A stretch of DNA of 64,000 nt from a virus: positions 1 through 64,000 of IMG/VR virus record IMGVR_UViG_3300032282_005530; one strand, written 5' to 3'. The translations under genes were made by a program, and so were the position numbers. Position 1 is the first letter of the stretch; every line of letters starts with the position of its first letter. Positions 37,419 through 61,053 of the stretch are shown here, piece by piece. The notes below the pieces were generated by a model. The model saw nothing but the letters and a program-made list of their open reading frames with translations. It had not been told where the DNA came from and ran no database searches.

Positions 37419-38150
37419 TTAAATTTCTCCATTATCCCAAGTTTTCTTAAAATCTTTATATTTTTGTCTTATTTTATTGAGATTGTTCACAACTTGTTTT
37501 GTGTTTAAGTCAGTAATCTCACGTACATATAAATATATGGCTTTTTTATTAAAAATCTCTATAGAATCAGGTTCTTTTAATAATATTATTATAGCATCCA
37601 GAACCTTTTTTTCATTTGCCTTTAAATCTAGTTTTTTCCAACCTTCTATCTCTAGCCATAAATGATTCCAAAATTCTTCATTTTCTCTTTTTATATCAGT
37701 ATCGTTATGTATAATTAAATTATCATAATCAACTTCTTTTTGATGCTCTGCATCATCCAGAAATAATTCTTTTTTATTTTGACGACTTACTTTTTTAACT
37801 TTATGAATAAACCAATTTTTTGTAATAACAGAAAAATAACTAAACGCTTTGGAACCCTTAGACGGATCGAATTTGTCTAATATTGTTGTGATCCAAATCT
37901 TACATTCTTCTTTTAAATCGTCGATATTTGGAAGATTGTTAAATTTATAGGTAAATACAATTTTATTTACCATTTCATTAAAAGCCGGTCCAATAAGACT
38001 TCTGTATAAATGTTGTCTTACTTTTGGATCTTTTGTGAGAGAATATTCAATTATAGCATCCTCATGATCCTGAGTAAAATACAGTTTTTCCTGTTGTTGA
38101 GGCGAATTTTTCTTTCTTCTCCTCGTTGTCTTCGGAGTCGTCTTCGTCAT
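37419..38150 (-). CDS. T4 gp55-like late-transcription sigma factor (243 aa)
   Basis: YFTQDHEDAIIEY...DDLKEEC...KFDPSKGSKAFSYFSVITKNWF resembles gp55/sigma region 2. Confidence 0.7.
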   Translation of the reverse strand: MTKTTPKTTRRRKKNSPQQQEKLYFTQDHEDAIIEYSLTKDPKVRQHLYRSLIGPAFNEMVNKIVFTYKFNNLPNIDDLKEECKIWITTILDKFDPSKGSKAFSYFSVITKNWFIHKVKKVSRQNKKELFLDDAEHQKEVDYDNLIIHNDTDIKRENEEFWNHLWLEIEGWKKLDLKANEKKVLDAIIILLKEPDSIEIFNKKAIYLYVREITDLNTKQVVNNLNKIRQKYKDFKKTWDNGEI

Positions 38151-51111: not shown

Positions 51112-51768
51112 TTATTTATTATCTCTAACAATTCCATGACAGGAACAATTTGGTATTCCTAGATTATCAAAATTAAGCGAAATAATTTGCTCTTTTGATA
51201 CAAAATTTTTCAATTCTTCACTCATTTTATATTCACCATTTTCAAATTTTATTAAACCTTTTTTATAAAGTTCAAAAATTAATTTTTCTGCTGTGTCGTG
51301 AGAGTGATTGTGAATTTGATTTGATTCTTTTCTATCTTGTCCGGAACATAAAAATAGATTTTCTGGTGTGTTATTTAATTTATCTCCGTCAATATGGTGA
51401 ATTATTTCGTGCTCTTCTAGATGTCTTCCTATTTGTTTTTCTATAACTAAAATATGCTCCATAATATATCTACCGCCTCTATATGGTTTTGAACGAGGGT
51501 GATCGTCAACCAAAACTGCTTTATATCCACCGCCCTGTTTTCTCCAACCTTTTCTAATATTTCCCAAGCTTATCTTTTTTTTTAATTCTTTTGATAATTT
51601 TTTTCCCCAATTAGGATGATTTTCACCAGATACAGAACACTTTCTACATAAATGCTCTTTTTTGTATTTTGCCGTTATGTATTTAACATTTCTTTCTTTA
51701 TTACACTTTTCACATTTAACTTTTATTATATCTTTCCAAGATTTTTCTTCTATATTATCTAATATCAT
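51112..51768 (-). CDS. HNH homing endonuclease with NUMOD3-like motif
   Basis: GENHPNWGKKLSKELKKKIS; EHILV...IIHHIDGDKLNNTPENL. Confidence 0.88.
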   Translation of the reverse strand: MILDNIEEKSWKDIIKVKCEKCNKERNVKYITAKYKKEHLCRKCSVSGENHPNWGKKLSKELKKKISLGNIRKGWRKQGGGYKAVLVDDHPRSKPYRGGRYIMEHILVIEKQIGRHLEEHEIIHHIDGDKLNNTPENLFLCSGQDRKESNQIHNHSHDTAEKLIFELYKKGLIKFENGEYKMSEELKNFVSKEQIISLNFDNLGIPNCSCHGIVRDNK

Positions 51769-51803
51769 TTCACTATCTCCTTTTTAGAAGTAAATAGTGA
51801 AAT
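51767..51803 (-). promoter_or_regulatory. RBS/start-sequestering hairpin containing CTATTTA
   Basis: Perfect 10-bp inverted repeat ATTTCACTAT (51767-76)/ATAGTGAAAT (51794-803); motif at 51791-97. Confidence 0.7.
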
Positions 51804-54992: not shown

Positions 54993-55021
54993 AGTATAAC
55001 ACCGATCTCCCGGTCTGTCAA
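54993..55021 (-). promoter_or_regulatory. sigma70-type promoter for tRNA-Leu
   Basis: TTGACA-17 nt-TATACT with extended -10 TG; -35 overlaps the upstream TGA. Confidence 0.85.
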
Positions 55022-55533
55022 GCCGCTGCCATCTGCTTTGTGTATTCAAAGAGCATAATGTTACACGCTTGCGCCGTATTTAAACAAAAACCTATTCCCG
55101 GCATTGGAATTTGTACAACTTCACTGTGCTGGAGAATATCGGATGGTACTCCTGTTTGTTCGTTCCCCACCACAATACAGACCTTACGATCTGTCGGATA
55201 CGCATAATCATACAAACTCCTTGAGCTGTCTGTTAATTCCGCTGATACAATATGAATATTATTCTCTCTGCAATAAGTTAAAAAATGATGTGGATTAGAA
55301 AACTTTTGAAGTTCTATGAAGTCACTTGTAGTACCTGAAAGCTCTCTTAGTTCTTTTGGTTCCGGACAACAACCAATCAGATTTACTTTACTTGCTCCAA
55401 AACAAGCAGCGGCCCTTATAACATAACCAATATTTGGTTCATGTTTAAAATTAATACAAGCAACCTCTACTGGAAACTTAACAGAGAGTTTTTCTTTGTT
55501 CTTATATCTTTCTCGACGAGTTTCACCGCGCAT
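55018..55533 (-). CDS. SPOUT (TrmH/TrmL-like) RNA 2'-O-methyltransferase
   Basis: PNIGYVIRAAACFG...VVGNEQTG...QIPMPG..CLNTAQA; start re-called at ATG 55533 (GGAG SD). Confidence 0.9.
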   Translation of the reverse strand: MRGETRRERYKNKEKLSVKFPVEVACINFKHEPNIGYVIRAAACFGASKVNLIGCCPEPKELRELSGTTSDFIELQKFSNPHHFLTYCRENNIHIVSAELTDSSRSLYDYAYPTDRKVCIVVGNEQTGVPSDILQHSEVVQIPMPGIGFCLNTAQACNIMLFEYTKQMAAA

Positions 55534-55535
55534 AT

Positions 55536-55856
55536 TCACTCCATAAAAAGAAAACAACTTGTTGGCATATTATCAGAGCATTCAATATTCCTTAGTTCTT
55601 CTTTACAAAGATAAATCATTTGCAAATCTGGTAGTTCTACGTTACACATTTCTCCATCTTTTACAACTTTATCGCAATCTTCTACATCAAATCCAGTACA
55701 GGCATGTGCTTGTACACACAAAACTTCATATGCATCATTACAAGCAGATTTTTTCTTATTTAATGACATTTGTAGTTCTACTGCATTTTTAGCAGTAATA
55801 CCAAATAAAAAACCACCCGCTAATCCTATAATACAAAAAAGAATATTTTTTTTCAT
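55536..55856 (-). CDS. Cys-rich membrane-anchored/secreted protein (106 aa)
   Basis: N-terminal hydrophobic segment, 8 downstream Cys. Confidence 0.7.
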   Translation of the reverse strand: MKKNILFCIIGLAGGFLFGITAKNAVELQMSLNKKKSACNDAYEVLCVQAHACTGFDVEDCDKVVKDGEMCNVELPDLQMIYLCKEELRNIECSDNMPTSCFLFME

Positions 55857-56406: not shown

Positions 56407-56724
56407 TCAAGTAGCAGGCTTCCAACCAAGCTTTTTAAAGTGTTCTGAACGAGAACTAAACCACTCTCGTCCCTTCTCTGAATCATTGCGGGAGATAAAT
56501 TTAATTCCTTTTGTAGTTACTGGATAAGCTACATGCTTCAATCCACTTAGATTAGCAAGTGCTACTGTCTTTACTCGGAAAGGAATTTCATCAACCATAA
56601 CAACCATTCCGTGTTGTGGAACGAAATTAGCCTCAACAGTCTTTACGAGTGTTGAATTCTGGTGTTCTTCACGACCACGAAGTTCAAGATCAAGATTTAG
56701 TTCAATTGTACGCTTATCAGACAT
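56407..56724 (-). CDS. Hypothetical protein (105 aa)
   Basis: AGGAG SD before ATG 56724. Confidence 0.7.
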   Translation of the reverse strand: MSDKRTIELNLDLELRGREEHQNSTLVKTVEANFVPQHGMVVMVDEIPFRVKTVALANLSGLKHVAYPVTTKGIKFISRNDSEKGREWFSSRSEHFKKLGWKPAT

Positions 56725-56757
56725 AACATTTCTCCTTTTGTTCAAGTGTCGGTAGTC

Positions 56758-57192
56758 TCAATCTACCATGCACATATCATATCTTTCTACATCAATACCA
56801 GATTTTTTTAAGATGTCTAATCCTTTTGAATCTCGGTATTCATCACAAAAAATAACTTTTTTAATTCCAGCATTAACAATCATACGAGCACAAACAGGAC
56901 AAGGCGAATGAGTGAGATACATTTTTTTGTTTCTGTGATCTCCAAAATTCATCTTGATCAACGCATTTGCTTCTGCGTGGATGAACCCACTTTTACCCGG
57001 CTCCATACTATCAGGTTGATTATTTCCACCTTGCTCGTCTCCGTTGTAACCAATAGCAAGAACACTAGTATTGTCTTCTGTAACAATTACAGAACCAACT
57101 TTCAATCTGGGATCACGGGAACGTTCTGCGATATGCAGAGTTAATCCCATCCAGATTTCATCCCACTTTGGTTTTTTCTTTGGTCTTGCCAT
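56758..57192 (-). CDS. dCMP deaminase family protein
   Basis: KVGSVIV...GYNG...HAEANA...THSPCPVCARMIVNAGI; start probably 57192. Confidence 0.9.
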   Translation of the reverse strand: MARPKKKPKWDEIWMGLTLHIAERSRDPRLKVGSVIVTEDNTSVLAIGYNGDEQGGNNQPDSMEPGKSGFIHAEANALIKMNFGDHRNKKMYLTHSPCPVCARMIVNAGIKKVIFCDEYRDSKGLDILKKSGIDVERYDMCMVD

Positions 57193-57376
57193 ACTTTTCC
57201 CCATAACATTCATCACAAAGTTTTTCTTCTTGTAATGTTGTCCATTCCCATTCATTCATACAACAATCACAAAGCTTTGATGGGTCTTTAATCGCCGCTC
57301 TATTCGCTTTTGACAAGACTCTTGCTGCTTTTAATGCTGCTTTAAGTATTTTGCCTTCTTTTTTATTTTCATTCAT
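57158..57376 (-). CDS. Small Zn-finger-like protein (72 aa)
   Basis: CDCC...CDEC; starts 4 nt after tRNA-Arg CCA. Confidence 0.55.
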   Translation of the reverse strand: MNENKKEGKILKAALKAARVLSKANRAAIKDPSKLCDCCMNEWEWTTLQEEKLCDECYGEKYGKTKEKTKVG

Positions 57377-57380
57377 GATT

Positions 57381-57457
57381 TGGCGCTCTCGGAGAGATTC
57401 GAACTCCCGACCTTACGGGTAGAAACCGTCGGCTCTATCCAACTGAGCTACGAGAGC
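57381..57457 (-). tRNA. tRNA-Arg(UCU)
   Basis: ACGG-TT-TCT-AC-CCGT; CCA. Confidence 0.95.
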
Positions 57458-57465
57458 ATTTCCTT

Positions 57466-57630
57466 TCACTTTCCTAATACACGATACAAATCAAAACATC
57501 CACTACACTGACCTATTGATAATACGATAATCAATAGGGTTGAAACGGCGCCCAACTGTCTTGAAAATTCTTTTACAGCACCGGCCCAAGTTTCAGTAAC
57601 TACAATCGTATTTTTATTCTGTTCTGTCAT
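57466..57630 (-). CDS. Small membrane protein (54 aa), not in ORF track
   Basis: MTEQNKNTIVVTETWAGAVKEFSRQLGAVSTLLIIVLSIGQCSGCFDLYRVLGK, fills the gap between tRNA-Asn and tRNA-Arg. Confidence 0.55.
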   Translation of the reverse strand: MTEQNKNTIVVTETWAGAVKEFSRQLGAVSTLLIIVLSIGQCSGCFDLYRVLGK

Positions 57631-57643
57631 TTTCTTCTCTATT

Positions 57644-57720
57644 TGGCTGTCCAGGTTGGGGTCGAACCAACGACTTCGTGATTAACAGTCACGCGCTACT
57701 ACCAACTGAGCTACTGGACA
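57644..57720 (-). tRNA. tRNA-Asn(GUU)
   Basis: CGTGA-CT-GTT-AA-TCACG; CCA. Confidence 0.95.
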
Positions 57721-58186
57721 ATAAAATATTTCTTTCATTTTTGTCTATCATATTTCTGATATTTTCAATTTTATCAGAAAATCTTTTATCTGTTTCATAT
57801 TTTTTAAATATGTATGAATTATTTTCTATGTGGGTTTTTATTCGGTGGCAATTTGCGCATAATATTCTACATTTTGCTATTTCATTTTTTATAGCTTCAG
57901 ACTTTACACCTATTCTTACCATTTCAGAAACAGACTCAGTTTTATTATCAATATGATCAAACTCTAAAACCATTGGATTTTGTTCTTCGCATATAAAACA
58001 TTTGTGCGCTTCTTTTATTTCTAAAACTACATCTTGTAAACGATTTCTGTTATTTTTTACTCTTTCTTGTTGCTTTAATTTATTTTTATTCCACCAAATA
58101 CTTTGATTTTTTTTATTACATGAACGACATTGTTTTCTTCCATTTTTGTAAACTACTTTTTCTTCATTATGCTCTTTACAAATCAC
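57689..58186 (-). CDS. HNH endonuclease overlapping tRNA-Asn
   Basis: CFIC...LEFDH...EIAKCRILCANCHRIKTH; last 32 nt lie inside tRNA-Asn. Confidence 0.88.
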   Translation of the reverse strand: MICKEHNEEKVVYKNGRKQCRSCNKKNQSIWWNKNKLKQQERVKNNRNRLQDVVLEIKEAHKCFICEEQNPMVLEFDHIDNKTESVSEMVRIGVKSEAIKNEIAKCRILCANCHRIKTHIENNSYIFKKYETDKRFSDKIENIRNMIDKNERNILLSSSSVGSSA

Positions 58187-58187
58187 T

Positions 58188-58263
58188 TGGTACTCCCGGT
58201 GGGATTCGAACCCACATTTGTACGCTTATAAGGCGCGCGCATTAACCGTAATGCTACAGGAGT
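58188..58263 (-). tRNA. tRNA-Ile(UAU)
   Basis: ACTCCTG/CGGGAGT acceptor; loop CT-TAT-AA; A73; CCA. Confidence 0.9.
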
Positions 58264-58269
58264 AAATAG
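58263..58269 (-). promoter_or_regulatory. Putative late promoter CTATTTA ending on nt 1 of tRNA-Ile
   Basis: Minus strand ACTATTTA-CTCCTG. Confidence 0.5.
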
Positions 58270-58329
58270 TACTTATAACTTGTAAGAGACTTATAAAACT
58301 TCTACCGAGTTACGAGAGCACATGCATGC

Positions 58330-58358
58330 ATCATAGCAGAGATCGCTGGCCGCGTCAA
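58330..58358 (-). promoter_or_regulatory. sigma70-type promoter upstream of tRNA-Ile
   Basis: TTGACG-17 nt-TATGAT with extended -10 TG. Confidence 0.8.
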
Positions 58359-58372
58359 GCACGGCACAACGG

Positions 58373-58618
58373 TCATTTATTTTTTTTATTCTTTTTTGGC
58401 GTTTCTTCTGTTTGAACTAATGCTGGATTTGTTCTTACTTTGACTACAAATGTTTCAACTCCAGCAGCGTTTACAAAACGTTTTACTTTTACCTGTTTTG
58501 TTTCATCGGATAGAAAAGTTTTTCTAAATGTATCCGCTTCTCCGAATGTTGAAAACACTCGCTTATTATCCCATGGTGGTCCATCTTTATGTGGAACTTT
58601 TTCAACTTGTTCTGTCAT
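58373..58618 (-). CDS. Hypothetical basic protein (81 aa)
   Basis: ORF co-oriented. Confidence 0.7.
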   Translation of the reverse strand: MTEQVEKVPHKDGPPWDNKRVFSTFGEADTFRKTFLSDETKQVKVKRFVNAAGVETFVVKVRTNPALVQTEETPKKNKKNK

Positions 58619-58913
58619 TTTTTTTCTCTCTTTCTTTATTAAATTTCTCTAATCTAACTCGATGCTGATGTAACAAAACAATCAAACGATTGGTATTATC
58701 TTGATCGAGATTTACAACATCCCAATTTCCATATTTGCACTTATAGCCAAGTAGATATTTACCTACTGTGACTAGTTTTCCAATAATATTTTTTGGCTGT
58801 ATTAATTGAAAGTGAAAAAATAATTCTGGTGGCCATTCACCATCGCTTTGTTCACTTGTTACGCAAAATGTATGTTCCTTACTGGAACAAGTGCATTCAA
58901 AATAATCATTCAT
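58602..58913 (-). CDS. Hypothetical protein
   Basis: Start re-called at ATG 58913 (ATGA overlap); YFECTCSSKEH. Confidence 0.7.
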   Translation of the reverse strand: MNDYFECTCSSKEHTFCVTSEQSDGEWPPELFFHFQLIQPKNIIGKLVTVGKYLLGYKCKYGNWDVVNLDQDNTNRLIVLLHQHRVRLEKFNKEREKKNDRTS

Positions 58914-59155
58914 ACCGGTTGGACCCATTTTTCTAAAAATAATTCTTCTTCGGTACAATTATCATGAAAACCAATCCATATTTGTTGGTGAGAGCTAATA
59001 AATTTAAATATATCATTAAACTCACCACTAATAAGATATACTCTACCGGTTATTCCATTTTCGACTGTATATTTTCCACAATCTTTTTCTACGAGAAGTG
59101 GAGGAAGAACAGGTTTTGTGAACTTGTCCATAAAAACAAACATACTGTAATGCAT
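58910..59155 (-). CDS. Hypothetical protein (81 aa)
   Basis: ORF co-oriented, coupled downstream. Confidence 0.65.
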   Translation of the reverse strand: MHYSMFVFMDKFTKPVLPPLLVEKDCGKYTVENGITGRVYLISGEFNDIFKFISSHQQIWIGFHDNCTEEELFLEKWVQPV

Positions 59156-59167
59156 TTTATTCTCTTT

Positions 59168-59761
59168 TCAGAAACATGTCTCTAAAAACAATTTTAACAT
59201 TTTTTTTGAAGGTTTTAAAGTTCTTGTGAATGTTTTTGGCATATTAGAAAATATTTTATTTGTTCTAGATGGTGCAGTTTTAAACCATTTTCTTTTTATT
59301 TTGGCTGCTTCATATCCAAGAACATAACTATTTGCTTTCTGAATATAAAGTTTCTCATCTTTATATAATTTATATTCTTTTATAAATTTTAAAGCTCTCT
59401 TCTCGCAATCCAATTCACATTTTTGTATTAATTCACAAGTTTTTTGTAATTTATTCTTAGAAAGTTCTATTTTTCCTTCAAGCCATTCATCAAAATCAAC
59501 ATAAGCATCAGAAGTAGCTTTATCTAAAAATTTATTTTCTTTCCATTGACAAAAATGACTATATTCATGTGCTAATACGGTAAGCCATTCATCACAATAA
59601 ATAGCAACATTTAATCGTCGCTCATCGTCACTCCAATAACCAGAAACACCTATCTTTTTTGAGAGTTTTATTTCTTGTTTTGGATGAAAGACTATTTCAA
59701 CCCCATGTCTTAAACAGTCTTCTTGAACCAATTCTAAGAACTTCAGGATTGAATTTTTCAT
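59168..59761 (-). CDS. HExxH metallopeptidase-like protein (197 aa)
   Basis: VLAHEYSHFCQW...ELDCEKRA; CTAGTTA motif variant just upstream, possibly leaderless. Confidence 0.65.
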   Translation of the reverse strand: MKNSILKFLELVQEDCLRHGVEIVFHPKQEIKLSKKIGVSGYWSDDERRLNVAIYCDEWLTVLAHEYSHFCQWKENKFLDKATSDAYVDFDEWLEGKIELSKNKLQKTCELIQKCELDCEKRALKFIKEYKLYKDEKLYIQKANSYVLGYEAAKIKRKWFKTAPSRTNKIFSNMPKTFTRTLKPSKKMLKLFLETCF

Positions 59762-59866: not shown

Positions 59867-59957
59867 TGGCGGACAGGGTGAGATTCGAACTCACGATAGG
59901 CTATTAACCTACTCCGGGTTAGTAATCCGGTGCCTTCAGCCACTCGGCCACCTGTCC
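59867..59957 (-). tRNA. tRNA-Ser(ACU)
   Basis: GGACAGG acceptor, G73, long variable arm; CCGGA-TT-ACT-AA-CCCGG; CCA. Confidence 0.88.
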
Positions 59958-60216: not shown

Positions 60217-60243
60217 ATTTAAATCTCTCTAAAATTAAGTCCG

Positions 60244-60327
60244 ATGTTTAACCCGGATTCGAACCGGGATGCCATAACGGCGCTATAAACTACTTTATAG
60301 TGAGTCTACCAATTCCTCCAGTAAACA
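60244..60327 (-). ncRNA. Aberrant tRNA-Leu-like gene (closed anticodon arm, no CCA)
   Basis: Leu-type D arm GAGGAATTGGTAGACTC, variable arm, perfect T arm CCCGG-TTCGAAT-CCGGG; anticodon arm CTATAAA-GTAG-TTTATAG. Confidence 0.75.
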
Positions 60328-60335
60328 TAAGACAG

Positions 60336-60410
60336 TGGTGACGGGTGCGGGAATCGAACCCGCGATGCCTGGGTGAAAGCCAAGTGTTATAACCGTTTAA
60401 CTAACCCGCC
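60336..60410 (-). tRNA. tRNA-Glu(UUC)
   Basis: CTTGG-CT-TTC-AC-CCAGG; CCA. Confidence 0.93.
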
Positions 60411-61053
60411 TTTTCTTTTTTATAAAACCTACAGCACTTTTATGAATATTAAATTTTTTAGCTATCATACTATAACTATCTTGATCGTTTAAGATTGATA
60501 ATATTTGTTCTTCCGAAAGTTTCGGTTTAAATCTCGTTTTTTTTCCGGATTCAATAAAATTATTTTCATTTTGTTTTTTTCTATATTTTCCACAACAAAT
60601 ACGACTACAAAAGTTTGTTTTTTTTGGTTTTCTTTCAGAGTTATAATTTTTTAAACAATGCATACAATTTAAATTATATTTTGGATTATAAATATCGTAC
60701 AATAAATAAAATTTTGTAGTATGATATTTGTTTTTTACATAATCAAAAATATGTTTTAAATCTTTTTTATATAAAACTTTAATTTTATATCCATTATCAA
60801 TTGCTATTTGAGTTTTTATTTTAACAATTTCTGTTTCATATCCTTTAATTTCTACAATTTCACTCGTATCGGTTAAAATAAAATCTGGATAATATTTTAT
60901 ATTACCATCTGTTAAAAAACCCGGAAACCTACAAAAAGATATATTATTTTCTAAATTATAAATTACCCAGCACAATTCATATGTAGAACCACAATATATA
61001 CCTTTATAATATCCGGTCTTACTGCGACCAGTACCTTTTCTTATTCCGCCCAT
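60397..61053 (-). CDS. PD-(D/E)XK endonuclease with Zn finger and HTH, overlapping tRNA-Glu
   Basis: STYEL...YYPDF...EIKG; CMHC...FCSRIC; SYSMIAKKFNIHKSAV; last 14 nt inside tRNA-Glu. Confidence 0.8.
   Translation of the reverse strand: MGGIRKGTGRSKTGYYKGIYCGSTYELCWVIYNLENNISFCRFPGFLTDGNIKYYPDFILTDTSEIVEIKGYETEIVKIKTQIAIDNGYKIKVLYKKDLKHIFDYVKNKYHTTKFYLLYDIYNPKYNLNCMHCLKNYNSERKPKKTNFCSRICCGKYRKKQNENNFIESGKKTRFKPKLSEEQILSILNDQDSYSMIAKKFNIHKSAVGFIKKKRRVS

What the first reader, a model, noticed from the sequence alone, without database searches (positions are those of the whole stretch)
57644..58269. HNH endonuclease that borrows its RBS from tRNA-Ile and its stop codon from tRNA-Asn
Seen: (1) GTG 58186 lies 1 nt after the CCA of tRNA-Ile(UAU); the obvious SD is GGGAG (58197-58193) in the 3' acceptor strand, 6 nt from GTG and paired with ACTCCTG in the folded tRNA. 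(2) CTATTTA ends on tRNA nt 1, so a late transcript would start inside the 5' acceptor strand and free the SD. (3) The ORF reads 32 nt into tRNA-Asn (LSSSSVGSSA-TGA). (4) A sigma70 promoter upstream makes the full precursor. Inference: early RNA folds and is processed into tRNAs, leaving a nuclease message without SD or stop codon (RNase P cut, tmRNA substrate), while late RNA yields nuclease. The tRNA cloverleaf would itself be the translational switch. Free-standing endonucleases in tRNA clusters are known (T4 SegB); I do not know this wiring to be described.
Basis: partly seen in the sequence, partly recalled or inferred. Interest (0 to 1): 0.88.

Follow-up and report, generated by a model that had tools for sequence, protein, structure and literature searches.

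The report
Homing nuclease gene wired into tRNAs
A selfish nuclease gene in a large freshwater phage sits so tightly between two tRNA genes that its ribosome-binding site lies inside one tRNA and its stop codon inside the next, so tRNA folding and processing probably keep it nearly silent.

Summary
The GTG start at 58186 lies 1 nt after the CCA of tRNA-Ile(UAU). GGGAG lies in the 3' acceptor strand. CTATTTA ends on tRNA nt 1. The TGA stop lies 32 nt inside tRNA-Asn. A sigma70-type promoter lies upstream.

The ORF is a real HNH endonuclease under purifying selection (dN/dS 0.15 against a 72% relative). A block made of a 34-nt leader, tRNA-Ile and the HNH gene recurs in an otherwise unrelated phage contig with the same junction.

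Across the wider HNH family, 47 of 66 genes that end near a same-strand tRNA have their stop inside it. I found no such survey in print.

CTATTTA is the most enriched non-tRNA heptamer upstream of ORFs in this genome. The phage encodes a gp55-like late sigma. A second HNH gene carries the same box in the 5' arm of a hairpin that covers its RBS.

The logic is not new. Hairpin plus late promoter is known for T4 I-TevI-III, and loss of the stop codon through tRNA processing was proposed for T4 SegB and T5 nucleases. Using the acceptor stem as the sequestering helix is a new variant. No RNA data exist, so the switch remains inferred.

The parts
58330..58358 (-). Sigma70-type (early-class) promoter TTGACG-17-TATGAT with a TG extension and GATC in the spacer. 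It would make the precursor carrying tRNA-Ile, HNH and tRNA-Asn.
   Evidence: 10 of 12 matches, TG; it belongs to a GC-rich TTGAC..GATC..TGCTA promoter class that recurs at 55021 and in the 78-82 kb region of the genome. L083 has TTGACA-17-TAAGAT with the same GATCTCTG spacer core upstream of its tRNA-Ile.
58304..58319 (-). Fragment resembling the 5' end of a tRNA-Arg gene. It may be a scar of the cassette's insertion.
   Evidence: 14 of 16 nt identical to the first 16 nt of tRNA-Arg(tct) at 57457. Rfam finds no tRNA here at E<=1.
58263..58296 (-). Conserved 34-nt leader ending on tRNA nt 1. DNA further upstream cannot be aligned between the window and L082.
   Evidence: 29 of 34 identical to L082 (my count from the alignment), although synonymous sites of the adjacent HNH gene differ at pS 0.575.
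58263..58269 (-). CTATTTA box, a candidate single-box late promoter. If it is read like T4's late box, RNA would start near tRNA nt 7.
   Evidence: enriched upstream of ORFs, 17-22 nt before 8 ORF starts. (conserved at the same place in L082). Function as a promoter is inferred, not shown.
58188..58263 (-). tRNA-Ile(UAU) with encoded CCA. Its acceptor stem is ACUCCUG/CGGGAGU.
   Evidence: 60.3 bits. L082 shows a G-C to A-U change on both sides of an anticodon-stem pair.
58193..58197 (-). GGGAG, the only SD-like sequence before the start codon. It lies in the 3' acceptor strand, 6 nt before the GTG.
   Evidence: mean unpaired probability is 0.00 in RNAs that keep the 5' acceptor strand and 0.64-0.65 in RNAs that start at tRNA nt 6-10. 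GGAG-type SDs are enriched upstream of this phage's ORFs.
57689..58186 (-). HNH endonuclease gene, 165 aa, GTG start, stop TGA at 57691-57689.
   Evidence: phrog_2255, E 2.6e-24. (invariant CxxC, DH and CxNCH). (dN/dS 0.148 against L082).
57689..57720 (-). 32-nt overlap between the last 11 sense codons plus the stop of the HNH gene and the 5' part of tRNA-Asn (the first of these codons starts at 57721, one nt before the tRNA). RNase P cleavage at 57721/57720 would leave a message without a stop codon.
   Evidence: The same SSSSVGSSA tail is present in P0009 and P0014, and SGSSVGSSA in P0016. RNase P cleavage is inferred.
57644..57720 (-). tRNA-Asn(GUU) with encoded CCA.
   Evidence: 60.8 bits.
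37419..38150 (-). gp55-like late sigma factor, the candidate reader of the CTATTTA box (acting in trans).
   Evidence: phrog_234, late sigma transcription factor, E 9.6e-8. No Pfam hit.

Best explanation
Shown from sequence: this is a free-standing HNH homing-type endonuclease gene. It travels as a cassette made of a 34-nt leader, tRNA-Ile(UAU) and the HNH gene, and it sits inside a phage tRNA operon directly in front of tRNA-Asn. Its translation signals are embedded in the flanking tRNAs. The only SD is the 3' strand of the tRNA-Ile acceptor stem, and the stop codon lies 32 nt inside tRNA-Asn.

Inferred mechanism:
- On transcripts from the early sigma70-type promoter, the cloverleaf forms and the SD is paired.
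- Maturation of the tRNA-Ile 3' end removes the message's ribosome-binding site, and possibly its start codon.
- RNase P cleavage at tRNA-Asn removes the stop codon.
- So one RNA molecule can yield either tRNAs or nuclease, not both, and nuclease made from processed RNA would be a non-stop product.

A second class of transcripts would start at the CTATTTA box, read by the phage's gp55-like late sigma. These RNAs would begin about tRNA nt 7, lack the 5' acceptor strand, expose the SD and allow translation.

The design combines two known ideas: the I-TevI-type gate (occluding helix plus late promoter) and the SegB-type processing limiter. The difference is that a functional tRNA serves as the occluding helix.
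For: - Anatomy.
- Real, selected gene: phrog_2255 at E 2.6e-24, conserved HNH and zinc residues, dN/dS 0.148.
- Start codon fixed by homology: every full-length homologue begins M-I-C there.
- Junction conserved: L082 has tRNA-Ile, then AA, then ATG, with the same GGGAG and the same CTATTTA on nt 1. P0001's N-terminal extension matches the translated tRNA-Ile at 15 of 18 residues.
- Cassette: apart from the frames on the tRNA-Ile/HNH block itself, no ORF of at least 45 aa in the 8.4 kb of L082 matches the 82-kb genome. The leader is 29 of 34 identical despite pS 0.575.
- SD rarity in tRNA tails: 12 of 551.
- Folding: SD unpaired probability is 0.00 with the 5' strand and about 0.65 without it.
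- Box: 7 of 91 upstream regions against 0.6 expected. 17 sense-strand CTA[AT]TTA sites, 11 followed by an ORF start within 40 nt, 8 of them at 17-22 nt. CTATTTA ranks first of 105 same-composition heptamers.
- gp55-like sigma.
- Second HNH gene (51112-51768, HNH_3 plus NUMOD3) with a 13-bp hairpin over its AUG and SD, and the box in the 5' arm.
- Stop inside a tRNA is family-wide: 47 of 66 ORFs and 26 of 41 clusters at 60% identity, across 14 tRNA species, in both viral and cellular contigs. Fisher p = 7e-6 against other ORFs.
- Precedent for both halves of the logic: PMC2330249 Discussion.
Against: - No RNA evidence of any kind. No RNA run holds the stretch.
- CTATTTA has not been shown to be a promoter. 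Two copies lie in loops of terminator-like hairpins (3362, 70687). In L082 it occurs only at the tRNA, so its conservation there could serve tRNA leader processing instead.
- The permutation test is modest: 5 of 13 sites against 4 of 22 for the runner-up.
- The wiring is dispensable. L083 has its own SD in a 55-nt spacer. L082 has its own stop. Most close homologues are about 152 aa and end before the tRNA-derived tail.
- L006/L007 abut a tRNA with no SD in its tail.
- The window and L082 share descent, so they count as one evolutionary event.
- The controls include unrecognised nucleases and possibly spurious ORFs.
Confidence: 0.45

Rival explanations
1. There is no temporal switch. The nuclease is simply squeezed into the tRNA operon and is made at a very low, constitutive level. 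It comes from the small fraction of precursor RNAs that ribosomes reach before the acceptor stem closes or before processing. The overlaps are by-products of where this nuclease family inserts and of selection for compact arrays. The CTATTTA box serves something else, such as late transcription of the downstream tRNAs or a leader-processing signal.
For: - Overlap with the downstream tRNA is a general habit of the family, whatever the tRNA (14 species).
- The overlap lengths look like 'first stop met in the tRNA': 18 of 47 end at tRNA nt 8-10, mostly on a TAG.
- Relatives do well without the wiring (L083, L082).
- The SegB paper argues that segB stays restrained with no nearby promoter.
- In L082 the box is found only at the tRNA.
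Against: - The 34-nt leader carrying the box is conserved far above the neutral level.
- The same box sits in the 5' arm of an RBS-covering hairpin at a second nuclease gene.
- The acceptor stem carries a 5-mer SD found in only 12 of 551 tRNA tails.
Confidence: 0.3
2. tRNA punctuation. Endonucleolytic 3' processing of tRNA-Ile releases an mRNA that begins 0-2 nt before the start codon, and this mRNA is translated as a leaderless message. The GGGAG in the acceptor stem would be irrelevant.
For: - Gaps of 1-2 nt in the window, in L082 and behind P0001.
- L006/L007 have a 1-nt gap with no SD. L041, L079, L126 and L136 have 13-19-nt spacers without an SD.
I did not test it.
Against: - The window's start is GTG. 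Leaderless initiation in bacteria strongly prefers a 5'-terminal AUG (established knowledge, recalled).
- In E. coli-type hosts, tRNAs with an encoded CCA are matured by a cut further downstream followed by exonucleolytic trimming (recalled). That would destroy the start codon rather than expose it.
- The model does not explain the SD-like acceptor strand or the conserved box.
Confidence: 0.12
3. The gene is a silent or decaying remnant. The GTG start and the missing stop codon are signs of erosion, and the overlaps are accidents.
For: - A weak start codon (GTG, where relatives have ATG).
- Its own stop is lost compared with the ~152-aa relatives.
- The Pfam HNH match is below threshold (13.9 bits against 21.4).
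Against: - dN/dS is 0.148 over 151 codons.
- All catalytic and zinc-binding residues are intact.
- The 165-codon frame is uninterrupted.
- The same tRNA-derived tail is kept in P0009 (93% identical) and in the distant P0014 and P0016.
Confidence: 0.05

Closest known systems
T4 SegB (GIY-YIG homing endonuclease in the T4 tRNA gene cluster)
   Same: A free-standing nuclease gene inside a phage tRNA operon, co-transcribed with the tRNAs. For segB, tRNA maturation is proposed to cut the message between the last codon and the stop codon, and a structure is predicted to occlude the SD and start (PMC2330249, Discussion passages).
   Different: - The nuclease fold differs (GIY-YIG against HNH).
- The SegB occluding structure is an ordinary hairpin, not a tRNA stem.
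- No promoter lies near the segB 5' end.
- Here the overlap is 32 nt, not just the stop codon.
[quoted passage not shown]
   Same: The SD and start are paired in read-through RNA. A late promoter lies in or just before the 5' arm, so late RNAs lack that arm and are translated (as summarised in PMC2330249). The second HNH gene of this window (51112-51768) fits this pattern directly.
   Different: Here the occluding helix would be the acceptor stem of a functional tRNA, so the promoter would fire inside a tRNA gene. The promoter's activity has not been shown.
[quoted passage not shown]
   Same: HNH nuclease ORFs located in a phage tRNA cluster. Lowered expression through primary-transcript processing has been proposed for them (PMC2330249, which cites a paper and a personal communication).
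   Different: I did not compare their sequences or junctions. The primary T5 papers were not in the searchable library (one search returned only citing papers).
HNH endonuclease genes linked to tRNA arrays in bacteria, plasmids and mycobacteriophages
   Same: HNH genes are the protein genes most widespread in or beside tRNA arrays, and they are thought to spread the arrays (PMC8421152, PMC6409571 and PMC5966550; passages seen).
   Different: A word search for 'overlap' found no occurrence in PMC6409571 or PMC5966550. In PMC8421152 I searched only for the nuclease terms. None of the passages I saw describes ORF-tRNA overlaps or shared translation signals.
Mitochondrial tRNA punctuation of polycistronic transcripts
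   Same: Coding regions abut tRNAs with no spacer, so tRNA excision defines the mRNA ends (recalled; not taken from any call).
   Different: In mitochondria excision creates functional mRNAs. Here excision would remove the SD and the stop codon.

Membership tests
HNH (beta-beta-alpha-Me) endonuclease | Significant match to HNH family profiles | tested here: met
   phrog_2255 'HNH endonuclease', E 2.6e-24, residues 3-150. Most of the other 10 PHROG hits are also annotated HNH endonuclease. Pfam PF01844 is below its cut-off (13.9 bits against 21.4). No relative with a solved structure was found by sequence.
HNH (beta-beta-alpha-Me) endonuclease | Catalytic His...Asn...His residues with two CxxC zinc-binding pairs | tested here: met
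   Invariant in 17 aligned sequences: C63, C66, D77, H78, C110, N112, C113 and H114. The assignment of roles to these residues is my inference. No structure was predicted.
Free-standing homing endonuclease gene | Patchy occurrence in otherwise unrelated genomic contexts | tested here: met
   L082 shares only the leader, tRNA-Ile and HNH block with the 82-kb genome. There is one copy in the phage's own record. Caveat: that record is only 44% complete.
Free-standing homing endonuclease gene | A cognate allele without the nuclease gene exists and is cleaved site-specifically | not testable with these tools
   No HNH-free tRNA-Ile/tRNA-Asn allele was found. Cleavage needs a bench assay.
I-TevI-type translational gate | SD and/or start codon base-paired in read-through transcripts | tested here: met
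   The SD is the 3' strand of a 7-bp acceptor stem in a tRNA scoring 60.3 bits. Its unpaired probability is 0.00. The start codon itself is not paired (0.8-0.99 in RNA starting at the mature tRNA 5' end; 0.46-0.71 in the full-length sigma70-type transcript).
I-TevI-type translational gate | Late or middle promoter in or just upstream of the 5' arm, giving RNAs that lack the arm | tested here: inconclusive
   The CTATTTA box is enriched upstream of ORFs, is conserved in L082, and a gp55-like sigma is present. No transcript start data are available.
SegB-type limitation by tRNA processing | Nuclease ORF co-transcribed with tRNAs, with an RNase P site lying before its stop codon | tested here: met
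   The stop codon lies 32 nt inside tRNA-Asn. There is no terminator-like site between 58330 and 57644 on the minus strand. Co-transcription is inferred.
SegB-type limitation by tRNA processing | Processing actually lowers nuclease output (non-stop message, tmRNA tagging) | not testable with these tools
   This needs in vivo or in vitro RNA and protein assays.

The most novel reading that the evidence does not exclude
A functional tRNA doubles as the translational gate of a selfish nuclease that carries it around. The leader, tRNA-Ile(UAU) and HNH gene form a mobile unit. In this unit the acceptor stem hides the nuclease's SD, and a late promoter firing inside the tRNA gene unmasks it.

More generally, this HNH family has evolved to end inside the next tRNA, so that RNase P turns its message into a non-stop, self-destroying one. 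That would be a widespread rule, 'tRNA maturation vetoes nuclease expression', acting in the tRNA arrays of both phages and bacteria.
Probability: 0.3. Interest if true: 0.75.

Novelty: new variant of a known kind. Interest (0 to 1): 0.55.

Why it matters
Homing endonucleases must be expressed just enough to spread without harming their carrier. How free-standing ones in tRNA clusters are restrained has only been guessed at for T4 SegB and the T5 nucleases.

This locus gives a cleaner and testable case. Both ends of the message are physically part of tRNAs, so tRNA biogenesis and nuclease synthesis compete for the same RNA molecule.

The family-wide count suggests this is a common design rather than a curiosity: 47 of 66 HNH genes that end next to a tRNA stop inside it, in both phages and cellular genomes. 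It also shows that automatic annotation, which avoids CDS-tRNA overlaps, will often truncate or miss these genes.

If the internal promoter is real, it would be an example of a promoter firing inside a tRNA gene to make a deliberately defective tRNA transcript that serves as an mRNA leader.

Tried and rejected
- **Close relatives among isolated phages.** blastn of 57300-58700 gave 139 records, all tRNA-sized matches covering at most 7% of the query. tblastn of P0016 gave 153 records, all below 60% identity.
- **DNA context of the close homologues P0001-P0013.** Whether their ~152-aa products end at their own stops or at the first codons of a tRNA is therefore unknown, except for L082.
- **IMG/VR scans.** Alignment A1, P0016 and P0011 returned only relatives of 53% identity or less.
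- **Metagenome scan.** It gave one close locus (L082, 72%) and L083 (48%).
- **Exact-pattern scans.** The tRNA-Ile 3' 25-mer hit three unrelated tRNA-Leu genes. The tRNA-Asn 30-mer hit nothing. No HNH-free allele was found.
- **RNA evidence.** No RNA holder was listed.
- **Contigs of four DNA runs laid on 56700-59300.** They gave only short fragments. These include pieces that span the tRNA-Ile/HNH junction in other freshwater runs, but no joint that skips the HNH gene. The listed joints had short sides or came from other organisms' tRNAs.
- **Solved structures.** None was found by sequence. I did not predict a structure.
- **Leader as a decayed whole tRNA.** I considered this and rejected it. 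Only a 16-nt tRNA-Arg-like piece matches, and Rfam sees no tRNA there.
- **CTATTTA as a general feature in front of tRNAs.** Rejected: it precedes only tRNA-Ile.
- **Literature searches.** Searches found no paper describing an SD inside a tRNA acceptor stem or a survey of HNH-tRNA overlaps.
Full report
**What is there.** The window is part of an 82,365-bp viral record that is about 44% complete. It has 31% G+C. Its genes include baseplate proteins, PhoH, dCMP deaminase and glycosyltransferases, and a gp55-like late sigma at 37419-38150 (phrog_234, E 9.6e-8).

Between 54.2 and 61.2 kb, on the minus strand, lies an array of ten tRNA genes interspersed with small ORFs. tRNA-Ile(tat) is at 58188-58263 and tRNA-Asn(gtt) at 57644-57720. 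Both end in an encoded CCA and both score about 60 bits against the Rfam tRNA model. The ORF between them is 57689-58186, 165 aa.

Reading one search confirms each item of the finding:
- The GTG at 58186 lies one base after the CCA.
- GGGAG (58197-58193) lies in the 3' acceptor strand, 6 nt before the GTG.
- CTATTTA (58269-58263) ends on tRNA nt 1.
- The frame runs 32 nt into tRNA-Asn, ending ...LLSSSSVGSSA-TGA.
- TTGACG-17-TATGAT lies at 58358-58330.

That promoter belongs to a GC-rich TTGAC...GATC...TGCTA class. The class is repeated in front of tRNA-Leu (55021) and many times in the 78-82 kb region of the genome.

- The protein matches PHROG HNH families (phrog_2255, E 2.6e-24). The Pfam HNH model is only sub-threshold.
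- A search of 5.8 billion proteins gave 95 relatives.
- The thirteen closest are 56-93% identical. Twelve are full-length: eleven begin M-I-C at exactly this position, and P0001 has the same M-I-C after a 19-residue extension. P0009 is a fragment that lacks the N-terminus. The distant P0014 and P0016 also begin M-I-C.
- The CxxC, DH and CxNCH residues are invariant across 17 sequences.
- Against the 72%-identical copy in L082, dN/dS is 0.148, with synonymous sites nearly saturated (pS 0.575). The protein is therefore under purifying selection.

**The tRNA junctions in relatives.**
- L082 is a 23-kb freshwater metagenome contig. Its tRNA-Ile(tat) is followed by AA and then ATG. It has the same CGGGAGUACCA tail and the same ...gACTATTTA|ctcctg at tRNA nt 1.
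- P0001 (83% identical) was called with a 19-residue N-terminal extension. Of its first 18 residues, 15 match the window's tRNA-Ile translated in the appropriate frame. So its ATG also follows the CCA by 2 nt.
- L083 (48% identical) also has tRNA-Ile(tat) upstream, and an early-type promoter with the same GATCTCTG spacer core. But its acceptor stem has the purine strand on the 5' side, a 55-nt spacer carries its own AAAGAGG, and there is no CTATTTA.
- The borrowed SD is therefore a derived state of one sub-clade, not a property of the family.
- On the 3' side, L082 has its own TAA TAG and no tRNA-Asn.
- P0009 (93% identical) ends ...SLSSSSVGSSA. The distant P0014 and P0016 (43-45% identical, and lacking the C-terminal ~30 residues) end ...SLSSSSVGSSA and ...SLSGSSVGSSA. 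They read into a tRNA-Asn in the same frame.

**A mobile cassette.**
- Apart from the frames that overlie the tRNA-Ile/HNH block itself, no ORF of at least 45 aa in the 8.4 kb of L082 has a match in the 82-kb genome. The caveat is that the genome record is incomplete.
- The shared block starts 33 nt before the tRNA. The 34 nt that end on tRNA nt 1 are 29 of 34 identical, while DNA further upstream cannot be aligned.
- With pS at 0.575 next door, this leader is under constraint.
- Just upstream, in the window, lies a 16-nt piece matching the 5' end of tRNA-Arg at 14 of 16 positions. It may be an insertion scar.

**Family-wide habit.** I took the loci returned for distant relatives from IMG/VR, metagenomes and GTDB genomes, called tRNAs with ARAGORN, and extended each HNH match to its stop codon.
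- Of 220 distinct HNH ORFs, 66 end within -70 to +50 nt of the start of a same-strand tRNA. Of those 66, 47 have their stop inside the tRNA.
- Among the 47, 18 end at tRNA nt 8-10 (mostly the conserved U8-A9-G10 read as TAG) and 9 end at nt 13-15.
- Other ORFs of at least 80 aa in the same loci overlap in 55 of 146 cases (Fisher p = 7e-6). This control is conservative, because it contains other nucleases and possibly spurious ORFs.
- After single-linkage clustering at 60% identity, 26 of 41 tRNA-adjacent clusters contain an overlapping member. These involve 14 tRNA species. The split is 13 of 20 viral and 10 of 18 cellular-genome clusters.
- On the 5' side, tight junctions also occur: L006/L007 at 1 nt; L126, L136 and L041 at 13-14 nt; L034 and L079 at 18-19 nt. 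Most of these lack an SD in the tRNA tail or the spacer.
- Only 12 of 551 distinct tRNAs carry a 5-mer SD in their last 12 nt.

**The CTATTTA box.**
- It is under-represented in the window as a whole (13 found, 28 expected).
- It is nevertheless the most enriched non-tRNA heptamer in the 80 nt upstream of ORFs (7 of 91 regions, 0.6 expected).
- On the coding strand there are 17 CTA[AT]TTA sites. Eleven are followed by the start of an ORF of at least 50 aa within 40 nt, eight of them at 17-22 nt. On the other strand the figure is 1 of 6.
- Among 105 heptamers of the same composition, CTATTTA ranks first. The margin is modest: 5 of 13 sites against 4 of 22.
- If the box is read like T4's single late box (recalled: the last base lies at -6), RNA would begin immediately before the SDs of those genes. 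At tRNA-Ile it would begin at about nt 7.
- A second nuclease gene, 51112-51768 (HNH_3 plus NUMOD3), has a 13-bp hairpin covering its AUG and part of its AAGGAG, with the box in the 5' arm (-16.2 kcal/mol, z = -2.1). This is the I-TevI arrangement in plain form, in the same phage.
- Against the promoter reading: two boxes sit in loops of terminator-like hairpins. L082 has the box only at the tRNA.

**Energetics.** With the 5' acceptor strand present, the SD's mean unpaired probability is 0.00. This holds for RNA starting at 58322 and at 58263. For RNAs starting at tRNA nt 6-10 it is 0.64-0.65, and for an RNA starting at nt 4 it is 0.45. This follows from the design, but it puts a number on the effect.

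**Mechanism.**
- Shown: the SD is part of a tRNA helix. The stop codon lies beyond an RNase P site. The arrangement is conserved and the gene is under selection.
- Follows from established tRNA processing (recalled): a molecule that yields mature tRNA-Ile loses the message's SD, and a molecule cut by RNase P at tRNA-Asn has no stop codon. The RNase P-truncated message would still encode everything that is homologous to the ~152-aa relatives.
- Inferred: late transcripts from the box escape the first block.

I put the full switch at 0.45. The rivals are:
- a leaky, switch-less limiter, at 0.30;
- leaderless translation after tRNA excision, at 0.12;
- a silent remnant, at 0.05.

**Comparison with the literature.** I read the following as passages located by term search.
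- The Discussion of PMC2330249 states several relevant points. segB is transcribed as part of the tRNA precursor. A hairpin is predicted to hold its SD and start codon. I-TevI-III, and by suggestion MobE, escape such hairpins through late or middle promoters in or before the hairpin. [quoted passage not shown] Similar processing effects were proposed for T5 F-Tfl nucleases.
- PMC8421152, PMC6409571 and PMC5966550 document HNH genes in or beside tRNA arrays. A word search for 'overlap' found none in PMC6409571 or PMC5966550. In PMC8421152 I searched only for the nuclease terms. None of the passages I saw describes ORF-tRNA overlaps.
- Searches found nothing on an SD within an acceptor stem or on a survey of such overlaps.
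- Two things therefore look new: the use of a working tRNA as the occluding helix, with a candidate promoter firing inside the tRNA gene, and the family-wide statistics. The regulatory logic itself is known.

**Verdict.** The locus is a new variant of a known kind. Interest is 0.55.

Noticed in passing
window 60397-61053 (-), with tRNA-Glu at 60336-60410: A 218-aa ORF with no PHROG or Pfam hit ends 14 nt inside tRNA-Glu. It has CTAATTA 18 nt before its ATG. It contains a YYPDF...VEIKG stretch that looks like a PD-(D/E)xK nuclease motif, and an HTH-like C-terminus (my reading). It is probably a second nuclease of another fold wired in the same way.
   Followed up: partly
window 51112-51803 (-): A second HNH gene (HNH_3 plus NUMOD3) has a 13-bp hairpin covering its AUG and part of its SD, with the CTATTTA box in the 5' arm. 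This is an I-TevI-like gate.
   Followed up: yes
window 58304-58319 (-): A 16-nt piece matches the 5' end of tRNA-Arg(tct) at 14 of 16 positions, directly after the early promoter. It may be a scar of the cassette's insertion into a tRNA gene.
   Followed up: partly
window 55018-55557 (-): A SpoU-family RNA 2'-O-methyltransferase gene lies inside the tRNA array (PF00588, E 3.7e-26). It might modify tRNAs.
   Followed up: no
window 59867-59957 and 60243-60327 (-): ARAGORN calls a tRNA-Ser with anticodon ACT and a tRNA with a four-base anticodon (gtag). These are odd tRNAs that I did not examine.
   Followed up: no
genome 78-82 kb, and window 55021 and 58358: A class of GC-rich promoters, TTGAC(A/G)...GATC...TGCTA, stands out in an otherwise 31% G+C genome. 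GATC is present in 9 of the 23 TTGAC-N-TAnnnT matches listed.
   Followed up: partly
L006/L007 2927-2931: In an unrelated phage, an HNH gene of the same wider family starts 1 nt after a tRNA-Lys that has no encoded CCA, and there is no SD in the tRNA tail.
   Followed up: partly
L179-L258 (bacterial and archaeal MAG contigs): The same HNH family ends inside tRNA genes in cellular genomes too, for example in Saccharibacteria, Chloroflexota and Dactylosporangium. 10 of 18 tRNA-adjacent clusters overlap.
   Followed up: partly
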